From: Minisyncoccota bacterium
GTDB lineage: Bacteria; Patescibacteriota; Minisyncoccia; Phycocordibacterales; WO2-35-19
Direction of reading: 5' to 3'
Assembly: GCA_036517255.1 (NCBI GenBank)
Contig: DATDXE010000004.1
Coordinates: 30,543 to 94,542 of the forward strand
Length of the DNA stretch: 64,000 nucleotides
The position numbers and the translations under genes were made by a program. The notes below the pieces were generated by a model that saw nothing but the letters and a program-made list of their open reading frames with translations, was not told where the DNA came from and ran no database searches. Positions within the stretch are counted from its first letter, which is position 1; each line of letters begins with the position of its first letter. Below are positions 9,443-64,000 of the stretch, piece after piece.

Positions 9443-10480
9443 ATGAAGAAATTTCTCTCTCCTAAAATTTTGATTCTCACTACTGTTATCCTGCTTGGAG
9501 GAGTACTTTTATATTGGAAGCAAAATTCGAACAAGGCAATCGGAAATTTGAATGTATACGAAGGTAAAACTACGATCACTCGGGCTGAAAAATTGGTAGA
9601 AGGTAGAACGGGTATAGAGGTAAAAAGGATGGATGGGGTCAAAATAAACACTGACGCAAGAGCTTCTATCGTATTGAAAAATGGTGGCCTCTTGCGCCTC
9701 GAATCAGGTTCGGAAGTGGAAATATTGGGAGAAGACAATTTCAAATTGAAGAGTGGTCGAATGTGGTCGAGAGTAGAACCATTATCAGAAAATGAGTCTT
9801 ACAGTGTCGAAACTCCGACTGCGGTCGCCACCGTGCGAGGCACTATTTTTAATGTTGATTATTTATTTAATATAAGCCAGCTCTATGTGGATAGCGGTTT
9901 GGTAAATATGGCTCTGCTCATGGGTACTCCTGAAGAAAAGAAAGGTAAAGAAACTTTGTCGGGAGAACTTTTCGTATTAAGAGACAATAATTTAAAAAAT
10001 GATTTTGCAAAGGGGCCAGTACCTGCACCGAAAGAATTCTATGATGATTGGATACAGTGGAATGTGGATGAAGATGCTAAAGCAGGCTTTACAGAATGGG
10101 CCCATCCTGCTGAAGAAGAAATCGTAGAAGCCGTTCCTATAAACATAGTAAATCCTCCCAAACAAGTAGAGAAAAAAATCACTTCCATATTCCTTTATGG
10201 AAATAAATCTAAAATAAAACAAGGCGAGGAGACTAGACTTCTGGTAAGAGCTAGTTATCCTGATGGCTCTGTGCAAGAAGTGCCATTTGCAAATTTGACT
10301 TGGATAAAAAGTGAAAAGTGGGGAAACATAACTTCCCCCGGCTATTTCGGGAGCAATACAGTGGGTACGACTACCATATCGGCCCAAATAGGTAACTTAG
10401 TTTCAAACAGAGTCACTGTCGTAATCGAAGCGAATCCTGTTGTTCCTCCTCCAAACCCAAATACATATTATGAACCGTAA
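9443..10480 (+). CDS. FecR-domain membrane-anchored protein
   Basis: N-terminal TM; TAVATVRGTIFNVDY FecR-like beta-sandwich signature; C-terminal Ig-like segment. Confidence 0.6.
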   Translation: MKKFLSPKILILTTVILLGGVLLYWKQNSNKAIGNLNVYEGKTTITRAEKLVEGRTGIEVKRMDGVKINTDARASIVLKNGGLLRLESGSEVEILGEDNFKLKSGRMWSRVEPLSENESYSVETPTAVATVRGTIFNVDYLFNISQLYVDSGLVNMALLMGTPEEKKGKETLSGELFVLRDNNLKNDFAKGPVPAPKEFYDDWIQWNVDEDAKAGFTEWAHPAEEEIVEAVPINIVNPPKQVEKKITSIFLYGNKSKIKQGEETRLLVRASYPDGSVQEVPFANLTWIKSEKWGNITSPGYFGSNTVGTTTISAQIGNLVSNRVTVVIEANPVVPPPNPNTYYEP

Positions 10481-12179
10481 CAAGTTTTACTTTTCTTTTG
10501 GATTCCTCACAATAGTGGTTCTTACTCTCATAAATTATTCTGGGGTATTTCAAAATTTTGAATATAGAGCTCTCGACATTTTCCGTTCAGCTCACTCAGC
10601 TCATCCCGATATCGTGATCGCCGCGATTGATAATAAGAGCATAGAAGAAATAGGTCGTTGGCCATGGAATCGAAAAGTGCACGCCGATTTTCTAAATGTT
10701 TTAGATTCCTATGGACCTCAAGTATTAGCTTTTGATATAAATTTTTCTGAAAAGCAAGATGACCTAAACGATAGTGCGTTCGCTTTTGCTATAGAAAATG
10801 CTTCTTTCCCAACAGTACTTACTACCCAAGCTATATTTACAAAAAATTCTGAAACTCCCCAATCATTTTTAAAACCAGTCATATTTTCGAAAAACACTGG
10901 CCACGTGAATGTTCCTGAGAGCGATGATGGTATTACCAGAAAATTTCCTGAATCTCTTGGGACAAAAGAAGAAACATTTCTACCATTTAGTTTCAAATTG
11001 GCAGAAATAGTGGGAGCAAATTTACCAAAAGAACAAAACCTCCTTATAGATTTCAGTGGCAAGGCTGGATCTTTCCAAACAATTTCATACAGCGATGTTT
11101 TAAATCGTAAAATAAAAAGTGAAGATTTGAAAGATAAAATAATTTTGGTGGGGGCGACCGCAAGCGACCTGCGCGATTACGTTTATGTCCCAGTAGCAGG
11201 TGAAATTATCTCCGGAGTCGAGTGGCATGCAAATGTTTTGGACAATATTCTCTTAAGTAGAGCTGTTGCTTATGCGCCAACTAAATACTATGTTCTGCTC
11301 GGCCTAATAATTTGGCTGATCATTTTGCTTTTACCCCTTTCAATAAAAACAAGTAATGTTTCAAAAATATTTACTGTACTAGTTATCGGGCTACCAATAG
11401 CAAGCCTAATACTGTGGCAAACCGAAAGTGTCGCCCTCCCCTTCTTCATCAATCTTGTCGGACTGATCCTAATATTCTTGATACGTTCTGGTTATAAATG
11501 GTACCAGGTTGAGATGGAAAAAAGGAAACTGCATAGGACTATCCAAAATAGATTTTCGCCTCAAGTGGTAGAAGCGATCATGCATGATCCGGAACTGCTG
11601 AAGCTCGGCGGAGTACGTAAAGAAGTAACGGTGCTCTTTTCCGATATCCGCAATTTCACCACCATTAGCGAATCAGTTGCTCCGGAAACTCTTTCCAAAT
11701 TACTGCACGAATATTTCACTGAAATGACGGAGGAGGTGCTCGCGACCGACGGCGTACTCGATAAATTCATAGGCGACGCTGTCATGGCTTTCTGGGGCGC
11801 GCCGATAGAGCAAAGTGACCAAGTTGATAGAGCGGTCAAAACAGGGCTTGGTATGCTGCGACGTCTTACCGCTCTACAAAATAAATGGAAAAAACAAGAT
11901 ATGCCTTTTATAGATATCGGCATCGGCATCCACACCGGCATTGCTACCGTCGGTAACATGGGTTCAGAAAAACGTTTCGATTACACTGTGATCGGTGACA
12001 CAGTCAACATAGCCTCTCGCCTTGAAGGTTTGAATAAGGAATACCAGACCCACTTCATTATATCCGAAGCCACTCTCCACAAAATTTCTCCTTCCCTGAA
12101 CATCCAATCAAAACCCCTCGGCGAAGCCCTCGTCAAAGGCAAAACCCAAGGTGTAAATATTTTTGAAGTTAGCGAATAA
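10470..12179 (+). CDS. CHASE2-sensor adenylate/guanylate cyclase
   Basis: ATG 10470 (MNRNKF) overlaps FecR stop; CHASE2 region, 3 TM, class III cyclase motifs VTVLFSDIRNFT..FIGDAVMAFWGAP..GIHTG..GDTVNIASRLE. Confidence 0.8.
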   Translation: MNRNKFYFSFGFLTIVVLTLINYSGVFQNFEYRALDIFRSAHSAHPDIVIAAIDNKSIEEIGRWPWNRKVHADFLNVLDSYGPQVLAFDINFSEKQDDLNDSAFAFAIENASFPTVLTTQAIFTKNSETPQSFLKPVIFSKNTGHVNVPESDDGITRKFPESLGTKEETFLPFSFKLAEIVGANLPKEQNLLIDFSGKAGSFQTISYSDVLNRKIKSEDLKDKIILVGATASDLRDYVYVPVAGEIISGVEWHANVLDNILLSRAVAYAPTKYYVLLGLIIWLIILLLPLSIKTSNVSKIFTVLVIGLPIASLILWQTESVALPFFINLVGLILIFLIRSGYKWYQVEMEKRKLHRTIQNRFSPQVVEAIMHDPELLKLGGVRKEVTVLFSDIRNFTTISESVAPETLSKLLHEYFTEMTEEVLATDGVLDKFIGDAVMAFWGAPIEQSDQVDRAVKTGLGMLRRLTALQNKWKKQDMPFIDIGIGIHTGIATVGNMGSEKRFDYTVIGDTVNIASRLEGLNKEYQTHFIISEATLHKISPSLNIQSKPLGEALVKGKTQGVNIFEVSE

Positions 12180-34741: not shown

Positions 34742-37360
34742 TTACTCCCCTATAATACCTTTGAATCCTTTCTTTTCACCTTCTTCGGTTACTTTGTCTG
34801 TAAGAGAGCTCGGCTCTTCCACGACTAGAGTAGATATTTTTTCAAGCGAGGCATCATACGAATTATTTTTGATGGCTTCTTTATGAGCAGTGCCGTTACC
34901 GAAGAGGATCACGCCCATCACAATGAGAAAGACGATGACGAATGGCAGGATAGTACAGTAGTGAGCGAAGATAGCCGACAATGCTATAGCTACAATAAGA
35001 AAGATTGCGCTCCAGATAAGTTTCTTCCTGCGGATTTTCATTCTTTCCATTTCATCCCTAGCAGGACCGCCAGAGAATAGCGAAGCAAGGATATAGATGA
35101 CAGCAAGTACGATGAGGAAAACGATGGCACACTCTAACGTGTCAGAAAGACTTTCAGGAATAGAGAAAAGTGAGATAGCAGCATTCCTTAAAACATTAGT
35201 TCCTGCTATTTCACTTCCGTTTATAAAATCAGAATCTGTAGGGTTTTCTGATTCAGTAGAAGTACCGACTCCTATAGAGCCCGAAACATCAGGTATCACG
35301 CCTCCGTTCTCTTCTATATCTTGAATGAAGCTTCTGAAAGAATCGATTTCACTCTGATCTGAAGCAGAAAGGGGGTAGATAGTTTTACAGAATATTTCAT
35401 TTATTTTTTTCTTGGTAAGGATATACACATATCCAGTCGGAGCTGTGTGGCCCCACGGAGCAAGGATATCGTCAGAGTATTTATTCTGGAATCTCGACAC
35501 AGCATCGAAAGTAGCATCGTCAAAGTTAGCTGTGAAGGAAAGATTTTCTCCTTCAAAAGCATTGAGGAAAGATTGGAGTTTTAATACTTCAAGAGGATCA
35601 TTTTGCAAATCCTTTCTCAAATAATCACGCAAGTATGAACAGGTAGTAGCTCCTAGAACAGCACCGCCGCCTATGGTAGTAATGTCACGCCTATGACCAC
35701 CAAGGCCGCCGCCCCCACCTCCTCCGCCACCGCCATTACCCCCAGAATTATCAGTAGGAGGATTCGTAGGAGGAGTAGAAACAGGAGACACGATGACAGA
35801 CCTAGTTACAGAAGTAGAAAGGTTTCCAGAGTCAGTAACGGAATAGGTTACTTCATACGTACCGGCAACAGCTGTATTTACAGTAGTCGTAGTAGCAATT
35901 TCATCGGTCAAATTACCATCCTCAGTATCATTTGCAGTAGCACCTGGATCAGTGAAGGTATCACCTATTGTCAAATTCAAAGGATTGGCACCAATCAAAG
36001 TGATAATTGGTGGAGTGTTGACTGGAGGATTAACACTATTAGCAACATTCAAGGCAATACAATAATATGTATTACCATTCTGTGGATTCAAAACGTAATC
36101 ATAGTTGTCAAAATACAAAACATCCTGATTACAAAACAGTTCAGCACTTACAACATTAGTCTGTGCGTCATTATTTGCATATGGACCATAGAAAGGAATA
36201 TAGCCATTCTTTAATACTTCACGAATCCATACCTTGTCAGAACCTAGAGCCGCAGGAATATCGACTTGAGTTTTACCCTGACTATCAGTCAATCCAAAAG
36301 TAGTCCAGCCGCTACCCGCTGGTCCGACAAAAGATGAACCAGGATCAGTCACTGACTGGTAGCCCCACTCGAATTCCCATCCAGGCTGCAAGTGGCAAGA
36401 AGGATGAGAAGCGAGGAAATCGGAAGCAGTAGAAGCAGTTACATCAGGGCCTCCCACTCCCCAGTTCGGTAAATCGATTTCATTATTACAAACTATTTTT
36501 GTAGCGATAACGCGGAATGTCGTGGCAGGTTCCACAACTACAGTTCTATTAGCAGAGGCTGACGCCCCATCAGAATCAGTGACAGAATAACTAAGAACGT
36601 AATTTCCAGGAAGAGAAGTGTTGACCGAACCAGAAACAGTGATGGAAGAGGTCAAATTACCATCCTCAGTATCATTTGCAGTAGCACCTGGATCAGTGAA
36701 GGTATTACCAGCAATCACAGTAAAAGGATTGGCTCCCAAAAGAGTGAGCACCGGAGGATTGTTCACAGGTACTTCAGGACCACCGCCAGGATTCGTATTA
36801 CAGGTCACAGCCTCGGACTGTACGTTCAATTTAAAGAGTAGCCCGGCTGGATTTGATTGTGGAGTAGCCCCGTCCCAACCAAAATTTTTAACCTTAAAAG
36901 AAATGTTGTTTGAGCCTGTAGTCAAAACTGAACTGAGGTCATAACTATCTTTCTCCTCATCAAAATAATTTAACTCAGAATTATCTTGAGCAAATGGGTT
37001 TCCATTGACAGATATTTCGTAGCCATTGTCAGCGGCCACGATAAGGGAAGCTACAGTCGGAGTGCCGACTATATTAAAGGTGCGAGAAAAAGATGTTTCT
37101 TCATCGATAGTAGGGTTTTCAACAAGAACAGTCTTCCAAATCCAAGTAGCCCCAGGGATGCTTGCTGTCCAACGAGGGTTTGCAGAATATGTTGCTACAG
37201 CATTAGAATTATCAGAAAGAAGAGTGCTAGTATCACTCACTATTTCTAGATTACAAATAGCAAGTGCTTCGGAAGCACCTTCTTCAGCGAAGATAGAAAT
37301 AGGGCTCCCGATAAGTGTCACTACTACAAAAGCGGCTACAATGTTTTTGAATATATTCAT
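34742..37360 (-). CDS. large secreted/anchored surface protein with repeated Ig-like (DUF5011-type) domains, poly-Gly linker, PG-binding-like module and C-terminal TM helices
   Basis: signal peptide MNIFKNIVAAFVVVTLIGSPISIFA; two near-identical NPPVLTLLGANP..TFTDPGATANDTEDGNLT..YSVTDS repeats (56-nt identical DNA at 35906-35961 and 36650-36705); GGNGGGGGGGGGG. Confidence 0.7.
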   Translation of the reverse strand: MNIFKNIVAAFVVVTLIGSPISIFAEEGASEALAICNLEIVSDTSTLLSDNSNAVATYSANPRWTASIPGATWIWKTVLVENPTIDEETSFSRTFNIVGTPTVASLIVAADNGYEISVNGNPFAQDNSELNYFDEEKDSYDLSSVLTTGSNNISFKVKNFGWDGATPQSNPAGLLFKLNVQSEAVTCNTNPGGGPEVPVNNPPVLTLLGANPFTVIAGNTFTDPGATANDTEDGNLTSSITVSGSVNTSLPGNYVLSYSVTDSDGASASANRTVVVEPATTFRVIATKIVCNNEIDLPNWGVGGPDVTASTASDFLASHPSCHLQPGWEFEWGYQSVTDPGSSFVGPAGSGWTTFGLTDSQGKTQVDIPAALGSDKVWIREVLKNGYIPFYGPYANNDAQTNVVSAELFCNQDVLYFDNYDYVLNPQNGNTYYCIALNVANSVNPPVNTPPIITLIGANPLNLTIGDTFTDPGATANDTEDGNLTDEIATTTTVNTAVAGTYEVTYSVTDSGNLSTSVTRSVIVSPVSTPPTNPPTDNSGGNGGGGGGGGGGLGGHRRDITTIGGGAVLGATTCSYLRDYLRKDLQNDPLEVLKLQSFLNAFEGENLSFTANFDDATFDAVSRFQNKYSDDILAPWGHTAPTGYVYILTKKKINEIFCKTIYPLSASDQSEIDSFRSFIQDIEENGGVIPDVSGSIGVGTSTESENPTDSDFINGSEIAGTNVLRNAAISLFSIPESLSDTLECAIVFLIVLAVIYILASLFSGGPARDEMERMKIRRKKLIWSAIFLIVAIALSAIFAHYCTILPFVIVFLIVMGVILFGNGTAHKEAIKNNSYDASLEKISTLVVEEPSSLTDKVTEEGEKKGFKGIIGE

Positions 37361-37702
37361 GTTATTAATATCTCTAAATAATTTAATACCCCACAATTTA
37401 ATCTATTAACTTATCTCATGTATTAACATAATTGATAGAATATGTCAATAAACATACTAGGAAGTGTCAAGCGACCAAATGCTATTAAAGCCTTATTTAT
37501 CAACGTTTTTTAAAAAGGAGAAAAAATATTAAAATTTTGTCTTTTATAAATCCATATAATCCTAAAAAAGACTTACTTACTAGGTCCTATCAGATATAAA
37601 GGACAACTTACCTAAAAGACAAACTATGTCTTTTAGGTACAAAAGAGTCTATTTTTGCGTTTTTAGTCTTAAAGCTTATTATTAACAAGTAAATATATTG
37701 CT

Positions 37703-49785: not shown

Positions 49786-52251
49786 TTACAAACAAATGAA
49801 AGAGGCAATGGAGTCGCCGTCGCGGAGCTTCATGATACGAACGCCTTGAGTGGAGCGACCGAGAGTAGGTATCTCTTTCAGTTCGAGGCGGATGACCTGA
49901 CTTTTCTTCGACATGGCCACGGCCTCCTCTTCCTCACCTGTTACCACTTGAGAAGCAATGATGTCGCCAGTTTTACTTGTGACGTTACTTGTTTTTATTC
50001 CCGAGCCACCGCGACCTTGTATTTTGTATTCATCAATCGGAGTTTTCTTGCCATAACCTTTTTCGCCCATGACTACAAGTTCAGCAGTTTTTTCAAACGC
50101 CTTGGGTACATTGTGCGCGCCTATGATTTTATCGCCTTTGCCGAGCTTCATCACTCTTACACCAGCGGCTTGGCGACCCATCTCTCGTACTTGGGATTCG
50201 GCAAACCTGATCGATTGACCTTTAGCAGTTACCACTGCGCAAGAATCACCTTTATCAACCTGGGAAACAGAAATCAACTTATCACCCGCTCCCAACTTGA
50301 TAGCGATGATGCCGCTTGTACGCACATCGTGGAAACTCGAAGCTGAAACTTTTTTACCAGTACCTTGTTCAGTTATCATTATAAGAGATAGATTTTTGTT
50401 GTCCTTCAAGTTTTTCGGCATCGGCAAAATTGAAGTGACCTTCTCCCCTTCGGTAAGAGAAAGGAAATTCATAATTGATTTACCTCGAGTGGCTCGCCTA
50501 CCTTCCGGCAACTCATACATCTTTATTTGATAAGCCTTACCTTTGTCAGTAAAGAACAGGAGATCGGAATGAGTACTAGCGGTCAAGAAATGGGAGACAA
50601 AATCCTCTTCCTTAGTATCAAGGTCGACGACACCTACTCCTCCCCGCTTTTGCTGCTTAAATTCGCTTGGATGAGTGCGCTTCACATAACCTCCTTGAGT
50701 GAGCATAAGAGTGTTTTCCTCATCAGCGATGAGATCCTCCATTGAAAGAGCCTTCACTCCCCCTTTTACCACTTTAGTACGCCTCTCATCACCATATTTT
50801 TCTGCTATTTCTGAAAGTTCTTTTTTGATAATAGTCAAAATCTTCTTTGGGTTTTCCAAAATACTCTTCAAATCTTTTATCAGAGCTTGTACTGAGCTTA
50901 ATTCATCTTCTATTTTTTGTCTCTCGAGCCCAGCCAATTTTTGCAAACGCATTTCGAGAATAGCATTCGCCTGACGTTCTGAGAATTTGAACTCTTTCAT
51001 CAAATTAGCCCTAGCAGTATCAACATCCTTCGACTTCTTGATCAATTTTATGATTTCATCGATATGGTCGAGAGCTTTCTTCAAACCAAGTAGAATATGC
51101 TCTCTGTCTTCCGCTTCGCGTAGTTCAAACTCCGTCCGCCTTTTTATGACGATTTTCCTGTGACCAATAAATTCTTCGATTACACTTTTGAGTGAAAGAG
51201 TCTGCGGCACACCGTCGACTAGAGCCACCAGGTTCATGTGGAAAGTTTCTTCCAGCTGAGTGTGTTTGTAGAGGAAATTTAAAACTTTTTGCGGATAGCT
51301 ACCATTCTTCAAGTCGATCACCACTCTTATGTCTTTAGTCGACTCATCGCGCAAGCCTTTGATACCCTCCAATTTCTTCTCTCGCACCAATTCCGCGATT
51401 TTTTCTACCAGAGTTTGTTTGTTTACTCTGAATGGAATAGAGGTAATAATAATTTGACTCATACCCTTTTCCTCGACGATATCAGCTACTCCGCGACAAA
51501 CCATACCTCCACGACCAGTAGAATATGCGTGATGAATATCCTTTTCGTTAAAAATTACTCCACCGATTGGGAAATCAGGACCTTTGACAAATTGCAATAA
51601 ATCTTCAGTAGTGGCATCAGGATTTTCAATAAAATAGGCACAAGCGTCAGCCACTTCTCGCAAATTGTGAGGAGGAATGTTTGTGGCCATACCGACTGCG
51701 ATACCGAGAGTACCGTTTAATAGTAATTGTGGTACTGCCGCTGGAAGGACTGCTGGCTCTTTTTTTGTCGCATCATAATTTGGCCTCCAATCGACAGTAT
51801 CTTTATTTATATCGCGCAGAAGTTCACCGGAAAGACGTGACATTTTAGCTTCGGTGTAACGCATCGCAGCAGCGCTATCCCCATCGATAGAGCCGAAGTT
51901 ACCCTGGCCGATAATAAGCGGGTAACGCATCGTAAAATCTTGGGCCATCTTCACCATAGAATCGTAGACAGCTACATCGCCGTGCGGATGATAATTACCA
52001 AGCACTTCTCCCACCACAGTTGCTGATTTACGAGTTTTAGCGGTCGCAGTCAAATTCAAAGTATTCATGGCGTAAAGTATGCGACGATGAACAGGTTTCA
52101 AACCATCACGCACATCAGGTAAGGCCCTGTCAGTAATAACTGACATGGCATAATCGATGAAAGACTCTTTCATTTCCGTCACAATCGAACGCGAAATTAC
52201 GCCTTTATTAGGAACAGCATTCTCCACATTTTCTTCTACATTTTTAGCCAT
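49786..52251 (-). CDS. gyrA: DNA gyrase subunit A
   Basis: [25 protein letters not shown] (active-site Tyr region), six C-terminal beta-pinwheel blades, GyrA box. Confidence 0.95.
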
Positions 52252-60332: not shown

Positions 60333-61055
60333 TCACATTTTCCCCAGAAAAACTTTTTCAAGAATGTTGCTGTTTATGATAGTAGAGGGAGTGTCAGAGA
60401 CGACCACCTTCCCCTTATCAAGCACATAAGCCCGACTGGCGATTTCGAGTAGTGATTTTATATTGTGTTCGACTACGACGATTGCCGTTCGACGTTTTTC
60501 ATTTATTTCTTTTATTTTTTGGAAAACTTCTTTCACAATTTTGGGAGCGAGGCCGAGTGATGGTTCGTCGAGGAGAAGCACTTTAGGGTCAACGATAAGC
60601 CCGCGAGCGATAGCGAGCATTTGCTGTTGACCACCAGAAAGCGAACTCGACTTTTCTTTCAGCTTTGATCGGAGCATCGGAAAAAGCTCCAATACATCTT
60701 CTATTCTTTTTTTAATCTCTTTCTGATCCTTTATTACATATCCACCCACTTCCAAGTTTTCTCTAACAGTCAGATGTTTAAAAACTCTTCGGCCTTGAGG
60801 GACGAAAGAGATGCCTCTTTCCACCATTTCATGCGATACCGGTTTTACTTCATGTTCATGCCACAACACTTTGCCACTTTCAATAGGCGCGAGTCCAAAT
60901 ATAGCCTTCAGTACCGTCGATTTCCCTGCCCCATTTGGGCCCATCAGGGCTACTACCTCCCCCTCATCCACCTCCACACTCGCCCCCGCGAGCGCCCGGA
61001 CGCCCCCGTAGTGAACATGAACATTTTCAATTTTTAAGAGTACCTCTTTTTGCAT
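60333..61055 (-). CDS. livF: branched-chain amino acid ABC transporter ATP-binding protein (LivF-type)
   Basis: GPNGAGKST Walker A, LSGGQQQMLAIARGL signature, LLLDEPSLGLAP. Confidence 0.85.
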   Translation of the reverse strand: MQKEVLLKIENVHVHYGGVRALAGASVEVDEGEVVALMGPNGAGKSTVLKAIFGLAPIESGKVLWHEHEVKPVSHEMVERGISFVPQGRRVFKHLTVRENLEVGGYVIKDQKEIKKRIEDVLELFPMLRSKLKEKSSSLSGGQQQMLAIARGLIVDPKVLLLDEPSLGLAPKIVKEVFQKIKEINEKRRTAIVVVEHNIKSLLEIASRAYVLDKGKVVVSDTPSTIINSNILEKVFLGKM

Positions 61056-61058
61056 CCA

Positions 61059-62159
61059 CTATTCTGCCTTTATATACTGACCATTTTTTAGAGTCCAGAG
61101 CTCAAGAGCAAAAGTTACTGATCTATCATCCTGATAACCAAATCCTTTTATAGCTGGATTTTCATAGTTGAATTTTTTAGCCTGTGATACAAAATCCTTC
61201 GAATCAAATCCTGATTTTTGAATCATAGAGACAACTGCTTTTGTTATATCATATCCAAGAGCTACTACGTAATCTTCAGGGTTTTTTCCATACTTAACGC
61301 TATATTTTGAAGTAAACTCTGTACTGAATTGATTAGGAGCAATACCAGGCGCAAAAGTGCCTTCTATTGAGGAACCAAAATCTTTTACTGCTTGCATATT
61401 TAGGTCAACAAAAGTAATCCTCATACCTTTATACCCTCTTTCTTTCAAAATCTTCATGAGAGTGAAGGCCTGCGAAGTATCGCCACTCGCCATAAATACA
61501 GCATCAGCTTTCGAGGCAATTACCTTATCTGCTTGAGTTTTTAAATCTCTGCTTTCAAAAGGTACGAGTTCATTTATTACAACAGAATAACCTCCATCTT
61601 TAGATAGAGCGACCATCCCATCTCGAGAATTTATACCAAAGTCATCATTGGTATTTATCAAAGCGACAGTCTTCACATTCTGCTTTTTGATTTCAGGCAA
61701 AACAGTTTTAAGTTGATCAACGGCACCAGGATAGCCACAGAAAACATTCTCTAAATCTTTAAACGCATCCGAACAATATGAAGCAGAGAAAATTGTTACG
61801 CCCTTTTCTTTTGCCATTGGAGAAACAGCTACGACTTCATCGGGCACATAGAGTCCTAAAAGCACATCTACTTTATCTACATCTAGAAGTTTTTTTGCAG
61901 CGGTGACTCCATCTAATGTTTCAGTATGATCATCCTCGACGATAAAAGTAACTTTTGCAGGATCAAATTCAGCCTTGGCGAGTTCCACACCCTGTAAAAG
62001 TTTTTCTCCAGAAACAGCAACACTTCCAGTAAGAGGAAGAATTACTCCAACCTTTATCGGTTGTGTATTTTCTGTAGAATCAGGCTGTTTTTTAGAAAAA
62101 TAAACCAACCCTATAACAACAATCACCACAACCAAAATCCAAGCTAATTTTTTATTCAT
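61059..62159 (-). CDS. branched-chain amino acid ABC transporter substrate-binding protein (Peripla_BP_6)
   Basis: lipoprotein-like N-terminus; IKVGVILPLTGSVAVSGEKLLQGVELA typical LivK/LivJ start. Confidence 0.75.
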   Translation of the reverse strand: MNKKLAWILVVVIVVIGLVYFSKKQPDSTENTQPIKVGVILPLTGSVAVSGEKLLQGVELAKAEFDPAKVTFIVEDDHTETLDGVTAAKKLLDVDKVDVLLGLYVPDEVVAVSPMAKEKGVTIFSASYCSDAFKDLENVFCGYPGAVDQLKTVLPEIKKQNVKTVALINTNDDFGINSRDGMVALSKDGGYSVVINELVPFESRDLKTQADKVIASKADAVFMASGDTSQAFTLMKILKERGYKGMRITFVDLNMQAVKDFGSSIEGTFAPGIAPNQFSTEFTSKYSVKYGKNPEDYVVALGYDITKAVVSMIQKSGFDSKDFVSQAKKFNYENPAIKGFGYQDDRSVTFALELWTLKNGQYIKAE

Positions 62160-62227
62160 ATTTATTTTTACGATCTTGATTAATTAGTTCCATACTATCA
62201 AAAAAGTAAAATATGTAAACAGTAGGC

Positions 62228-62500
62228 TTAAAAAAGTCTTTTAAACTTTCTGTATACTTCATCGTCATTTCTTTTACCAATTAACTCAACTCTAACTTCT
62301 GGTTCTAAAATTGTGTAGATAATTCTATATTCTCCTATATCAGTAGCAAAGTAACCTGAGTATCCTTTTAGAGGTTTACTATCTGGAGGCAATGGATCAT
62401 CTTTGAGACTTAGAGCCTTTACAGATACCTACCTTTTTTGTTTTGGCGGTAACTTTTTAAAAAACTTTGATGCTAATTTTGAAAATTTAACGCTTAACAT
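62228..62500 (-). pseudogene. RelE/ParE-family toxin gene interrupted by a single in-frame TAG (codon 24, 62429-62431)
   Basis: ATG overlaps antitoxin stop (aATGttaagcgtTAA); MLSVKFSKLASKFFKKLPPKQKR-TAG-VSVKALSLKDDPLPPDSKPLKGYSGYFATDIGEYRIIYTILEPEVRVELIGKRNDDEVYRKFKRLF; RelE-like KxLKKL..QKRI and GxxRIIY..IG.R.D.Y. Confidence 0.6.
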
Positions 62501-62756
62501 TAAGAGCCGATCTTAATAATTTTTCAGTTTGAGCTACCGTCAAATAACCACCTTTTGCTGCCTTTTTTGCTTTTTCTCCCCAATAAGCATCAATGATCGC
62601 TTCAAAATCCTCATAATCAGCATAGTTTTCATTTGATAGAACATAAGCAACTTTACGGCCATTTTTTTGTATAGCAACTGGAGAACGACGAGCTTCGTCA
62701 AGAAGTCGTCCAAAGTTATTTTTTGCTTCTTTAGCTGTAAAAACTATTTGACTCAT
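62487..62756 (-). CDS. Phd/YefM-family type II antitoxin
   Basis: MSQIVFTAKEAKNNFGRLLDEARRSPVAIQKNGRKVAYVLSNENY typical Phd/YefM N-terminal fold. Confidence 0.7.
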   Translation of the reverse strand: MSQIVFTAKEAKNNFGRLLDEARRSPVAIQKNGRKVAYVLSNENYADYEDFEAIIDAYWGEKAKKAAKGGYLTVAQTEKLLRSALNVKR

Positions 62757-62835
62757 AATAGTAGCTATTGTAGCTAAAGTAGCTTCTTTGTCAAGGAAAA
62801 GCGGTTGATAACCTTAAGAAGTTTATGGATGTGAT

Positions 62836-63639
62836 CTACTCCCCCAAATATGCCTCAATTACATCTTTTCTGGCCAAGACTTCTTCTGGTTTACCTTCAG
62901 CTAACAACTTGCCTGCATCCAAGACAAAAATATGGTCGGACAATTCGCGGATAAGGTCCATATTGTGTTCGACTAGGATCACGGTTTTACCTTTTTCCTT
63001 TAGCTCTTTTATAACAGAACTGACGATTTTTACCATCTCGGGGAAAAGGCCGGCAAAAGGCTCGTCGAAGAAAAATATTTTCGCCTCCCCTGTTGGCGAA
63101 TGAGTCATAGCTAGAATACGGGCGATTTCGAGCAGTTTGCGCTGACCATATGAAAGGTTCGCTGCAAGCTCATTCTGTTTTACTTGCCCGCCCGAAGCTT
63201 TATGCGAAGGAGGGTTCCACAACCCTACACGATTTAACACCTCCTCTGCCTTTTCTAAGTGAAATGTTTTGTGTTTTTCGAACAAAGCTTCTGTAGTATT
63301 TCTTTCCGTGAGCACTACTAAAATATTGTCGAGTACTGTCATCTGCTCGAAAAGCCTCACATCTTGAAAGGTGCGCGTGATTTCGTAGGTCGGGACATCG
63401 TACCGCCTGATTTTGGAAAGGACTGTATCTCTGCCCACGAGTACCATTCCTCCATCGATTTGATGTATGCCAGTAATCGTATTGATGAGAGTCGATTTAC
63501 CACTACCATTCGGCCCTATCAAACTCGTCACCTTCCCTGGCTCAAAGGACAACGAAAGCCCATCCACGGCATACACTCCATCAAAGTGTTTAGTAATTTT
63601 ATTTGTTGAAAGTGTTGACATTTGATTTGGCGAAATCAT
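62836..63639 (-). CDS. livG: branched-chain amino acid ABC transporter ATP-binding protein (LivG-type)
   Basis: GPNGSGKST, LSYGQRKLLEIARIL, FFDEPFAGLFP. Confidence 0.85.
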   Translation of the reverse strand: MISPNQMSTLSTNKITKHFDGVYAVDGLSLSFEPGKVTSLIGPNGSGKSTLINTITGIHQIDGGMVLVGRDTVLSKIRRYDVPTYEITRTFQDVRLFEQMTVLDNILVVLTERNTTEALFEKHKTFHLEKAEEVLNRVGLWNPPSHKASGGQVKQNELAANLSYGQRKLLEIARILAMTHSPTGEAKIFFFDEPFAGLFPEMVKIVSSVIKELKEKGKTVILVEHNMDLIRELSDHIFVLDAGKLLAEGKPEEVLARKDVIEAYLGE

Positions 63640-63680
63640 GCCGACCCGACGTCCATTAGGGGTCGGCTTTTCTTAATTCT

Positions 63681-64000
63681 TTATTTCTTCAAAGGAACAA
63701 ACTTACCATCTTGGATTGTTTGGATTGCAGTCGGGGTATTGAGAGAAGCGTGTTCAGCACTGAATTGGAATGTACCATTTGGAGTTTTGAATTTTGTGTT
63801 TTCAAGAAGAGAAGGTACTTCTGATTTATCTTTAGCTTTTGATACAGCTTCGGCTAAGATATAAAGAGCATCATAAGCCCTGTTTACCGAATTGGCTGGT
63901 TCGATTTTATATATTTCCCTAAATTTCTTATCGAAGCTCTCTGGAGTAACATTCCAATTCAAAACTACGACACCATCAAACAAACTTTTATCAGTCCCTT
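63681..64000 (-). CDS. ABC substrate-binding protein, C-terminal part (gene continues beyond window end)
   Basis: ORF open to the window edge; Peripla_BP_6-like C-terminal lobe. Confidence 0.5.
   Translation of the reverse strand, partial: GTDKSLFDGVVVLNWNVTPESFDKKFREIYKIEPANSVNRAYDALYILAEAVSKAKDKSEVPSLLENTKFKTPNGTFQFSAEHASLNTPTAIQTIQDGKFVPLKK

What the first reader, a model, noticed from the sequence alone, without database searches (positions are those of the whole stretch)
62228..62835. Phd/YefM antitoxin with overlapping RelE/ParE toxin inactivated by one in-frame amber codon; GTAGCT x3 candidate operator upstream
The toxin ATG overlaps the antitoxin stop (aATGttaagcgtTAA). The toxin reading frame is intact for 90 codons except for TAG at codon 24 (62429-62431). 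Both halves show RelE/ParE hallmarks. All other genes in the window terminate conventionally and conserved genes (groEL, gyrA) contain no in-frame TAG, so this is a nonsense mutation rather than recoding. That leaves an orphan antitoxin. Upstream of phd, GTAGCT occurs three times with 9-nt phasing (62762, 62771, 62780), a plausible autoregulatory operator.
Basis: seen in the sequence. Interest (0 to 1): 0.55.

Follow-up and report, generated by a model that had tools for sequence, protein, structure and literature searches.

The report
Toxin-antitoxin pair with dead toxin
This is an ordinary bacterial toxin-antitoxin gene pair in which one C-to-T change has turned an invariant glutamine codon of the toxin into a stop codon, leaving an intact antitoxin with its own promoter and a conserved repeat operator.

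Summary
An 89-aa Phd/YefM antitoxin (62487-62756, minus strand) overlaps by 14 nt a 90-codon RelE/ParE-superfamily frame (62228-62500). That frame is broken only by TAG at codon 24 (62429-62431).

- **Toxin type.** It is RelE-type, not ParE-type. Its profile hits E. coli RelE (E=2e-7), and a confident model (pLDDT 92) matches RelE structures first.
- **Origin of the stop.** Codon 24 is an invariant Gln in the family, and the closest relative reads AGG CAG GTA where the window reads AGG TAG GTA. This is a C>T nonsense mutation.
- **Not a sequencing error.** Ten contigs assembled from different samples are 100% identical and all carry TAG.
- **Not recoding.** 19 of 67 long ORFs in the window end in TAG. 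The one "intact" database protein is a TAG=Q gene-calling artefact.
- **Recent event.** There is no other lesion, and toxin dN/dS against the nearest relative is 0.05.
- **Operator.** They overlap a TTGACA-16-TACAAT promoter. Cores spaced 9 bp apart recur upstream of family members across phyla (48 of 140 loci against 3 of 2253 control stretches), which supports an operator.

Verdict: an ordinary, newly decayed Phd-RelE cassette in a probable Saccharibacteria genome. Interest is low to moderate.

The parts
62228..62794 (-). Whole TA cassette as a conserved unit, from the -35 box to the toxin stop codon
   Evidence: blastn against the nearest relative (L022/L011) aligns exactly window 62794..62228 at 79.6% identity, while the cassette sits at a different place relative to the neighbouring genes.
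62789..62794 (-). -35 hexamer TTGACA of the cassette promoter
   Evidence: Promoter scan: TTGACA-16 nt-TACAAT, 11 of 12 matches. TTGACA is invariant in 11 distinct related cassettes.
62767..62772 (-). -10 hexamer TACAAT, embedded in the second and third repeats
   Evidence: The hexamer ends 10 nt before the ATG, and there is no Shine-Dalgarno sequence, so the mRNA is inferred to be leaderless or nearly so.
62761..62784 (-). Three AGCTAC repeats with a 9-nt period (AGCTACtttAGCTACaatAGCTAC); candidate operator for the antitoxin
   Evidence: Unique in the window, with 0 of 100 shuffles matching. Conserved in related cassettes whose further flanks are unrelated. 9-nt-phased GCTA cores are enriched upstream of family members. 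Unit consensus is T-R-G-C-T-A-W-W-W.
62487..62756 (-). Intact Phd/YefM-family antitoxin gene, 89 aa
   Evidence: PF02604 E=7e-10, 39 bits. TIGR01552 29.6 bits. The N-terminal 35 residues are almost invariant among cassettes that share the operator.
62228..62500 (-). RelE-type toxin pseudogene: 90 codons, with the start overlapping the antitoxin ORF by 14 nt
62429..62431 (-). In-frame amber codon (codon 24) replacing the invariant Gln24; a CAG>TAG transition
   Evidence: Identical in 10 independent contigs.
62192..62219 (-). Promoter-like site TTTACA-16-TAGTAT (TG-extended) just after the toxin stop. It belongs to the downstream solute-binding-protein gene, not to the cassette.
   Evidence: This stretch aligns with the region upstream of the same gene in L022, where the cassette lies elsewhere.

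Best explanation
This is a chromosomal type II toxin-antitoxin cassette of the 'Phd/YefM antitoxin + RelE-type toxin' kind. It lies inside a branched-chain-amino-acid-type ABC transporter gene cluster of a probable Candidatus Saccharibacteria (CPR) bacterium. In its intact form the cassette is transcribed from its own near-consensus sigma-70-type promoter as an mRNA with little or no leader. The antitoxin is made first and the toxin is made by translational coupling across the 14-nt overlap. The antitoxin dimer, helped by bound toxin, would sit on three TAGCTA-type palindromes spaced 9 bp apart that cover the spacer, the -10 box and the start site, and so repress its own promoter. The free toxin would cleave mRNA on the ribosome as RelE does. 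In this genome a single C>T change has converted the invariant Gln24 codon (CAG) into TAG. Translation should therefore stop after 23 residues (strand 1, helix 1 and the first turn of helix 2), and no folded toxin is made. What remains is an intact antitoxin-repressor gene with its promoter and operator. Lacking its corepressor, it is probably more weakly repressed, and no terminator is predicted before the downstream solute-binding-protein and ATPase genes. The inactivation is recent, because nothing else in the toxin frame has decayed. Shown: gene identities, the stop and its ancestry, its presence in every contig recovered for this locus (all of them identical in sequence), and family-wide conservation of the promoter and repeats. 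Inferred: DNA binding by the antitoxin, leaderless expression, the RelE-like activity of the ancestral toxin, and the regulatory consequences.
For: Identity of the two genes. RelE type: the family profile hits E. coli RelE 4v7k at E=2e-7, then archaeal RelE and M. tuberculosis Rv2866. The AlphaFold model (pLDDT 92.1) matches M. tuberculosis RelE1 and RelE2, E. coli, T. thermophilus and archaeal RelE at ranks 1-11 (TM 0.68-0.76), with ParE only from rank 34. Family residues R59, R77 and Y83 align with RelE R61, R81 and Y87 (their roles from PMC5027501). Nonsense mutation: Q24 is invariant in 40 aligned homologues. L011 and L022 read AAA AGG CAG GTA TCT where the window reads AAA AGG TAG GTA TCT. 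Not an error: 10 contigs from ENA, Logan and JGI samples are 100% identical over up to 801 nt and all carry TAG. Not recoding: 19 of 67 ORFs end in TAG, no tRNA with a CUA anticodon is in the window, and P0001 comes only from L010, whose DNA has TAG. Recent: toxin dN/dS is 0.053 against L022 (antitoxin 0.081), and apart from the stop the window lineage has only one clearly derived residue change. Rarity: about 150 family genes from genomes and metagenomes include only one other early stop. Promoter. Operator. Precedent for paired palindromes over the -10 box bound by a YefM antitoxin with the toxin as corepressor: PMC1802561.
Against: No expression, binding or toxicity data exist. The toxin Pfam score is only just above threshold (24 against 23), and the RelE_StbE NCBIfam model is below its cut-off (17.7 against 27.9). 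The window and its closest relative have Ala at position 52, where the family has Arg and E. coli RelE has Lys52. The ancestral toxin of this clade may therefore already have been atypical or weak. All ten contigs are identical in sequence, so they sample one clonal population, and low-frequency CAG alleles in the reads cannot be excluded. Part of the repeat conservation is confounded with conservation of the -10 box that it overlaps.
Confidence: 0.82

Rival explanations
1. Leaky amber. The UAG is read through at low frequency. Near-cognate tRNA-Gln misreading of UAG would restore the ancestral Gln24, so the cell would make a trickle of wild-type toxin, and the cassette would persist as a low-dose, still functional TA module rather than a pseudogene.
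For: The stop sits exactly on a Gln codon. The rest of the frame is untouched and shows no excess of derived amino-acid changes. The allele is fixed in all sampled contigs. That Gln is the usual amino acid inserted at leaky UAG in bacteria is my own knowledge, not tested here.
Against: An intact remainder is equally expected for a recent mutation. No stimulatory RNA structure follows the stop (z = -0.27). TAG serves as an efficient terminator for 19 of 67 genes in the window. Only one other early stop was seen among about 150 family members, at a different codon, so there is no sign of a recurrent or conserved stop.
Confidence: 0.07
2. Artefact. The TAG is a sequencing or assembly error and the TA pair is really intact.
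For: A database protein (P0001) with Gln at position 24 exists.
Against: P0001 derives only from contig L010, whose DNA reads TAG and does not translate to P0001 under the bacterial code. Ten contigs from different samples, and from several assembly sources (ENA, Logan, JGI), agree.
Confidence: 0.01
3. Genome-wide TAG reassignment or an amber suppressor tRNA makes the toxin full-length.
For: None positive. CPR relatives are known for UGA recoding (my own knowledge), and only 64 kb of the genome was seen.
Against: 19 of 67 long ORFs end in TAG, followed by normal intergenic gaps. This includes the two genes flanking the cassette. The 8 tRNAs in the window include no CUA anticodon. groEL, gyrA and other conserved genes have no internal TAG.
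Confidence: 0.01
4. For the repeat element only: the AGCTAC repeats are not an antitoxin operator. They would be conserved because they overlap the -10 box and start site, or because the cassettes share recent DNA ancestry.
For: The second and third repeats overlap the -10 hexamer. Among the CPR cassettes the whole 45-bp promoter block is conserved, not only the cores.
Against: The phased cores recur in cyanobacterial, deltaproteobacterial and other members whose toxins are only about 50% identical and whose promoters are otherwise unalignable. Some of these have 4 units extending well beyond any -10 box. Successive GCTA spacings are almost only 9, 18 or 27 nt. 48 of 140 promoter regions have at least 2 phased cores, against 3 of 2253 control stretches. 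The antitoxin DNA-binding half is near-invariant where the operator is invariant.
Confidence: 0.15

Closest known systems
M. tuberculosis RelBE2/RelFG (Rv2865-Rv2866, PDB 3g5o) and RelJK (Rv3357-Rv3358, PDB 3oei)
   Same: Both show a RelE-fold toxin in a solved toxin-antitoxin complex. Rv2866 is hit by the family profile (E=1e-3). 3g5o is the second-best structural match (TM 0.75-0.82, 30% identity) and 3oei ranks 16. That the antitoxins of these pairs are YefM/Phd-like is from my own knowledge.
   Different: Sequence identity is low (about 25-30%). The operator and promoter organisation were not compared here. The mycobacterial toxins are intact, while the one here carries an amber codon and lacks the Lys52-equivalent basic residue.
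E. coli RelE (RelBE; PDB 4fxe, 4v7k)
   Same: It is the best sequence-profile match (E=2e-7), with the same fold. The Arg61, Arg81 and Tyr87 equivalents are conserved as R59, R77 and Y83, and the Gln25 equivalent is the mutated Q24.
   Different: The E. coli antitoxin RelB is a ribbon-helix-helix protein, not Phd/YefM. Here position 52 is Ala (the family has Arg, RelE has Lys52) and position 54 is Asp (RelE has Lys54). Ribosome-dependent cleavage was not tested.
E. coli YefM-YoeB and its operator (PMC1802561)
   Same: It has a Phd/YefM antitoxin upstream of and overlapping the toxin gene. Its operator is made of short hexamer palindromes that cover the -10 box, with the antitoxin as primary repressor and the toxin as corepressor. 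This is the working model I adopt for the repeats.
   Different: The core there is TGTACA, in two copies 12 bp apart centre to centre. Here the core is T(A/G)GCTA, in three (up to four) copies 9 bp apart. YoeB structures rank below RelE for this toxin (ranks 24 and 33).
Decayed TA loci and orphan antitoxins in bacterial chromosomes
   Same: The toxin is knocked out by a point mutation while the antitoxin stays intact. This is a commonly described fate of chromosomal TA modules (my own knowledge).
   Different: Nothing essential differs. Here the event can be pinned to one transition at an invariant codon and is evidently very recent.

Membership tests
Phd/YefM antitoxin family (PF02604 / TIGR01552) | Sequence match to the family model above the curated threshold | tested here: met
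   PF02604 39 bits against 29.8. TIGR01552 29.6 bits against 20.8.
Phd/YefM antitoxin family (PF02604 / TIGR01552) | Antitoxin gene lies upstream of, and is translationally coupled to, a toxin gene | tested here: met
   There is a 14-nt overlap with the toxin start. Relatives overlap by 8-14 nt.
Phd/YefM antitoxin family (PF02604 / TIGR01552) | Binds its own operator and neutralises the cognate toxin | not testable with these tools
   Only indirect evidence: conserved phased palindromes over the promoter.
RelE/ParE toxin superfamily (PF05016) | Sequence match to the family model above the curated threshold | tested here: met
   With X at the stop: 24.0 bits against 23, covering profile positions 1-88 of 89. 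This is marginal for the single sequence, but 456 homologues were found, many carrying PF05016.
RelE/ParE toxin superfamily (PF05016) | Small alpha/beta microbial-RNase-like fold (N-terminal helices packed on a 3-4-stranded antiparallel sheet) | tested here: met
   Model pLDDT 92.1 with topology b-a-a-b-b-b-a. Foldseek probability is 1.00 to many RelE structures.
RelE subfamily (ribosome-dependent mRNA endonuclease) | Closer to RelE than to ParE, YoeB, YafQ or HigB by sequence and fold | tested here: met
   RelE entries fill the top of both the profile search and the fold search, with ParE from rank 34.
RelE subfamily (ribosome-dependent mRNA endonuclease) | Catalytic set of E. coli RelE: Lys52 or Lys54 (general base), Arg61, Arg81 (general acid), Tyr87 | tested here: inconclusive
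   R59, R77 and Y83 are present and invariant. Position 52 is Arg in most of the family but Ala in the window and L022, and position 54 is Asp (roles from PMC5027501).
RelE subfamily (ribosome-dependent mRNA endonuclease) | NCBIfam RelE_StbE model (TIGR02385) above its cut-off | tested here: not met
   17.7 bits against 27.9.
RelE subfamily (ribosome-dependent mRNA endonuclease) | Ribosome-dependent mRNA cleavage and growth arrest | not testable with these tools
   No experiment was possible.
Functional type II TA module | Uninterrupted toxin reading frame | tested here: not met
   TAG at codon 24 in the window and in all 10 related contigs.
ParE (gyrase poison) | Best similarity to ParE proteins and pairing with a ParD-type antitoxin | tested here: not met
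   ParE structures appear only at ranks 34 and below, with 10-20% identity. The antitoxin is Phd/YefM.

The most novel reading that the evidence does not exclude
The amber codon may not kill the toxin but throttle it. It replaces an invariant Gln codon, so occasional misreading of UAG by tRNA-Gln would yield authentic wild-type toxin at perhaps 0.1-1% of normal output. That would turn a dangerous module into a low-dose one that selection still maintains. A more probable companion reading (about 0.7) is that the TAGCTA palindromes spaced 9 bp apart form a previously undescribed, cross-phylum operator architecture for one Phd-RelE subfamily, coupled in CPR bacteria to leaderless antitoxin mRNAs.
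Probability: 0.07. Interest if true: 0.5.

Novelty: new member of a known kind. Interest (0 to 1): 0.25.

Why it matters
This matters mainly as a clean, well-documented example rather than as a discovery.

- **A dated decay event.** It shows a chromosomal toxin-antitoxin cassette at the first step of decay. There is one transition at an invariant codon, it is present in every contig recovered from this groundwater-type community, and nothing else is damaged.
- **A database pitfall.** The only "intact" protein record for this gene was produced by a gene caller that translated TAG as Gln on a short contig.
- **A testable operator.** The comparative work defines a promoter-operator module: TTGACA, then T(A/G)GCTA palindromes every 9 bp, then the ATG. 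It travels with this Phd-RelE subfamily across Saccharibacteria, other Patescibacteria, cyanobacteria and deltaproteobacteria. It can be tested directly by EMSA and could improve annotation of such cassettes.

If the leaky-amber reading were true, it would be a natural example of toxin dosage set by stop-codon readthrough.

Tried and rejected
- **CAG allele in metagenome contigs by DNA pattern.** An exact scan spanning the stop (AAACAAAAAAGGYAGGTATCTGTAAAGG) gave 0 hits. It did not even find the JGI contig known to carry the sequence, so it says nothing about polymorphism.
- **CAG allele by protein.** Again there is no polymorphism information. I reused those loci as a replicate set for the operator statistics.
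- **The "intact" protein P0001.** It first looked like a wild-type allele. I rejected this because its only source contig has TAG and does not translate to it.
- **Programmed readthrough structure.** The 101 nt around and after the stop fold no better than shuffles (z = -0.27).
- **Known RNA families.** Rfam found nothing in 61900-63100.
- **Anti-phage defence annotation.** PADLOC gave no hits for either protein.
- **Phage carriage.** Only 3 distant relatives turned up in 2.9 million viral contigs, so this is not a phage-borne family.
- **Transposition signatures.** There are no convincing flanking direct or inverted repeats around the 567-bp cassette.
- **Characterised Microcystis TA (PMC7935541).** That is a different, longer ParE-like toxin and not a member of this subfamily.
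- **C-terminal 54-aa ORF from TTG at 62392.** JGI called it as a gene (P0009). I rejected it as functional: it lacks strand 1 and both N-terminal helices of the fold, has no Shine-Dalgarno sequence, and scores below the Pfam threshold (16.9 against 23).

Full report
**1. What is in the sequence**

On the minus strand, an 89-codon ORF runs from 62756 to 62487. A second frame starts at ATG 62500, 14 nt inside the first ORF (aATGttaagcgtTAA), and runs 90 codons to TAA at 62230-62228. It has one in-frame TAG at codon 24, at 62431-62429.

Upstream of the first ORF the minus strand reads ccTTGACAaagaAGCTACtttAGCTACAATAGCTACtattATG. It contains two features:
- A promoter-like site, TTGACA-16 nt-TACAAT (62794-62767), matching 11 of 12 consensus positions.
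- Three AGCTAC hexamers with a 9-nt period at 62784-62761. None of 100 shuffles of the window gave a match.

Everything else is as described.

**2. What the two genes are**

The first product is a Phd/YefM antitoxin: PF02604 39 bits (cut-off 29.8) and TIGR01552 29.6 bits (cut-off 20.8).

The interrupted frame, with X at the stop, matches PF05016 (the RelE/ParE superfamily model) over profile positions 1-88 of 89, on both sides of the stop, at 24 bits (cut-off 23).

Several results place the toxin with RelE rather than ParE:
- In a 40-sequence alignment, Q24, G56, E57, R59, Y62, K76, R77, N78, D79 and Y83 are invariant.
- The family profile hits E. coli RelE best among solved structures (4v7k, E=2e-7). 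Next come P. horikoshii and M. jannaschii RelE and M. tuberculosis Rv2866.
- An AlphaFold model of the repaired protein is confident (pLDDT 92.1), with topology b-a-a-b-b-b-a.
- Its best Foldseek matches are RelE proteins: M. tuberculosis RelE1 and RelE2, E. coli, T. thermophilus and archaeal RelE (TM 0.68-0.76). ParE structures appear only from rank 34.
- The HMMER alignment puts family R59, R77 and Y83 on RelE Arg61, Arg81 and Tyr87, and family position 52 on RelE Lys52. Lys52 or Lys54 and Arg81 are the proposed general base and acid of RelE (PMC5027501).

One oddity remains. Position 52 is Arg in about 90% or more of the family (72 of 77), but it is Ala in the window and in its closest intact relative.

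**3. The stop codon is a real, recent nonsense mutation**

- **Ancestry.** Codon 24 is Gln in every homologue examined. The nearest relatives carry CAG or CAA. L011 and L022 read AAA AGG CAG GTA TCT where the window reads AAA AGG TAG GTA TCT. The change is a single C>T transition.
- **Not an error.** The exact antitoxin protein is recorded on 20 contigs. The 10 retrieved come from several samples and sources: ENA ERZ4903055, ERZ4903185, ERZ27254846, ERZ27254759, ERZ27254845, ERZ28563591 and ERZ28563660 (the last two from SAMN03842435 and SAMN03842440); Logan SRR2090153 and SRR3989342; and JGI 3300025317. All are 100% identical to the window over up to 801 nt, and all carry TAG.
- **The "intact" record is an artefact.** The only full-length database protein, P0001 with Q24, comes solely from contig L010. 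That contig's DNA has TAG and does not translate to P0001 under the bacterial code. The gene caller must have used a TAG=Gln table for that short contig.
- **Not recoding.** TAG terminates 19 of 67 long ORFs in the window, including both genes flanking the cassette. groEL, gyrA, IleRS-like, BipA and RNase J genes are uninterrupted. None of the 8 tRNAs has a CUA anticodon.
- **No readthrough signal.** The RNA after the stop folds no better than shuffles (z = -0.27).
- **Timing.** Against L022, the toxin has dN/dS 0.053 (dS about 1.3) and the antitoxin 0.081. Polarised with outgroups, the window lineage has, besides the stop, only one clearly derived amino-acid change. So the frame was under strong purifying selection until very recently.
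- **Rarity.** Among about 150 family genes from reference genomes and metagenomes, only one other (L076, codon 7) has an early stop, and one (L092) has a late stop.

**4. Promoter and operator**

The cassette behaves as a discrete unit. blastn against L022, an uncultured Candidatus Saccharibacteria MAG, aligns exactly window 62794..62228 (the -35 box to the toxin stop) at 79.6% identity. In L022 the cassette lies after the 366-aa solute-binding-protein gene. In the window it lies before that gene.

Eleven distinct CPR-type cassettes share TTGACAaagtRGCTACtttRGCTAYAATRGCTAYt...ATG, while the sequence 5' of the -35 box is unrelated. Their toxins are only 48-86% identical. Their antitoxins share an almost invariant N-terminal half (FTAKEAKNNFGRLLDEARRSPVAI.KNGRKVA) and diverge in the C-terminal, toxin-binding half.

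The pattern extends beyond CPR. Cyanobacterial, deltaproteobacterial and other members show 2-4 GCTA cores at 9-nt spacing upstream of the antitoxin gene, for example Pseudanabaena GGCTAaaatAGCTAaaatGGCTAtaatAGCTA. The counts are:

| Data set | Promoter regions with at least 2 exact cores in 9-nt phase | Control stretches | Spacings of successive cores (9 / 18 / 27 nt) |
|---|---|---|---|
| Genome loci | 28 of 70 | 3 of 1235 | 42 / 11 / 2 |
| Metagenome loci | 20 of 70 | 0 of 1018 | 25 / 4 / 2 |

The unit consensus is T-R-G-C-T-A-W-W-W, that is, TAGCTA-type palindromes every 9 bp.

The closest characterised precedent is the E. coli yefM-yoeB operator. It has two TGTACA palindromes 12 bp apart covering the -10 box, bound by YefM, with YoeB as corepressor (PMC1802561). 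I therefore regard the repeats as the antitoxin's operator (confidence about 0.75). Binding itself is untested.

In the CPR cassettes the -10 box ends 7-10 nt before the ATG in most (15 nt in one) and no Shine-Dalgarno sequence is present. The antitoxin mRNA is therefore probably leaderless or nearly so. Many non-CPR members carry a GGAGG-type Shine-Dalgarno sequence instead. This too is an inference.

**5. Consequences here (inferred)**

Translation should stop after 23 residues, inside helix 2. The first in-frame restart codon is TTG at codon 37. It would give a 54-aa fragment that lacks strand 1 and both N-terminal helices, and it scores below the Pfam threshold. So no toxin is expected.

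The antitoxin, promoter and operator are intact. Without a corepressor, autorepression is probably weaker. No terminator is predicted between the toxin stop and the downstream solute-binding-protein and LivF-like genes, which also keep their own promoter-like site at 62219-62192. The surviving antitoxin could still act on paralogous cassettes. A 71%-identical intact cassette with an almost identical operator occurs in at least two of the same samples, ERZ4903055 and JGI 3300025317 (L015 and L019). Whether it sits in the same genome is unknown.

**6. Comparison, novelty and verdict**

The architecture is a known one: a Phd/YefM antitoxin with a RelE-type toxin, as in M. tuberculosis RelBE2 and RelJK, regulated in the manner of YefM-YoeB. 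Toxin decay that leaves an orphan antitoxin is a familiar fate of chromosomal TA loci.

What is specific here:
- the precisely reconstructed CAG>TAG event;
- the Ala52 peculiarity of this clade;
- the family-wide operator with 9-bp phasing, combined with a leaderless layout in CPR.

I rate this a new member of a known kind, with low to moderate interest (0.25). The most novel reading that the evidence does not exclude is a functional "leaky amber" that restores Gln24 at low frequency (probability about 0.07).

Noticed in passing
L010:324-596 (same sequence as window 62228-62500): The only 'intact' 90-aa database protein for this toxin (P0001, Gln at residue 24) comes from a 1157-bp contig whose DNA has TAG. 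The gene caller evidently chose a TAG=Gln code for that short contig, which creates a phantom wild-type protein in the protein collection.
   Followed up: yes
window 62228-62794 vs L022:2422-2987: The 567-bp cassette (-35 box to toxin stop) is the exact unit of homology with a related Saccharibacteria MAG, but it sits on the other side of the 366-aa solute-binding-protein gene. The window order is LivG-TA-SBP-LivF, and L022 is SBP-TA-LivF. No flanking repeats explain the move.
   Followed up: partly
window 62345-62347 (toxin codon 52, GCT): The window and its closest intact relative (L011, L022) have Ala where the family has a near-invariant Arg. That position aligns with E. coli RelE Lys52, a proposed general base. 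The intact relative is still under strong purifying selection, so this clade's toxin may work differently or more weakly.
   Followed up: partly
window 62756-62772; L014, L023, L024, L025, L027: In CPR-type cassettes the -10 box ends only 7-10 nt before the antitoxin ATG in most (15 nt in L015), and there is no Shine-Dalgarno sequence. This implies leaderless or near-leaderless mRNAs. Many non-CPR family members have a GGAGG-type Shine-Dalgarno sequence between the repeats and the ATG.
   Followed up: partly
L014-L019 (e.g. L015:297-825 and 1692-1958): A paralogous intact cassette (toxin 71% identical, nearly the same operator) occurs in at least two of the same samples as the window-type contig (L015 in ERZ4903055, L019 in JGI 3300025317). 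It lies next to a YafQ-like toxin gene, forming a small TA island. Whether it is in the same genome, which would allow cross-talk with the orphan antitoxin, is unknown.
   Followed up: no
window 62725-62746 and 62762-62783: There is a 22-nt inverted repeat (77% complementary) between the operator repeats and codons 4-11 of the antitoxin (TTT ACA GCT AAA GAA GC, encoding the conserved FTAKEA). The extra AGCTA in the coding region is 30 nt from the third repeat, so it is out of the 9-nt phase.
   Followed up: no
window 60333-64000 and L001:1-2076: The surrounding transporter cluster has at least three paralogous Peripla_BP_6 solute-binding-protein genes plus LivG- and LivF-like ATPases. No permease genes are visible in the part examined.
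   Followed up: no
window 34742-37396: The largest ORF in the window (884 aa) is a surface protein with Ig-like domains (PF16403), not gyrA. gyrA is 49786-52251.
   Followed up: yes
window 10440-12179: This is a CHASE2-sensor adenylate/guanylate cyclase (579 aa) in what appears to be a reduced CPR (Saccharibacteria-like) genome.
   Followed up: no
L076 (Microcoleus sp. herbarium12): This is the only other early in-frame stop found in the family (codon 7, MAKLDG*Q). It comes from a genome assembled from herbarium material, so ancient-DNA C>T damage is a possible cause.
   Followed up: no
Metagenome-contig collection: An exact 28-nt pattern present in JGI contig Ga0209541_10017690 (L004) returned no hit, although other Ga0209541 contigs are in the collection. 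Negative results from that scan should not be read as absence.
   Followed up: no
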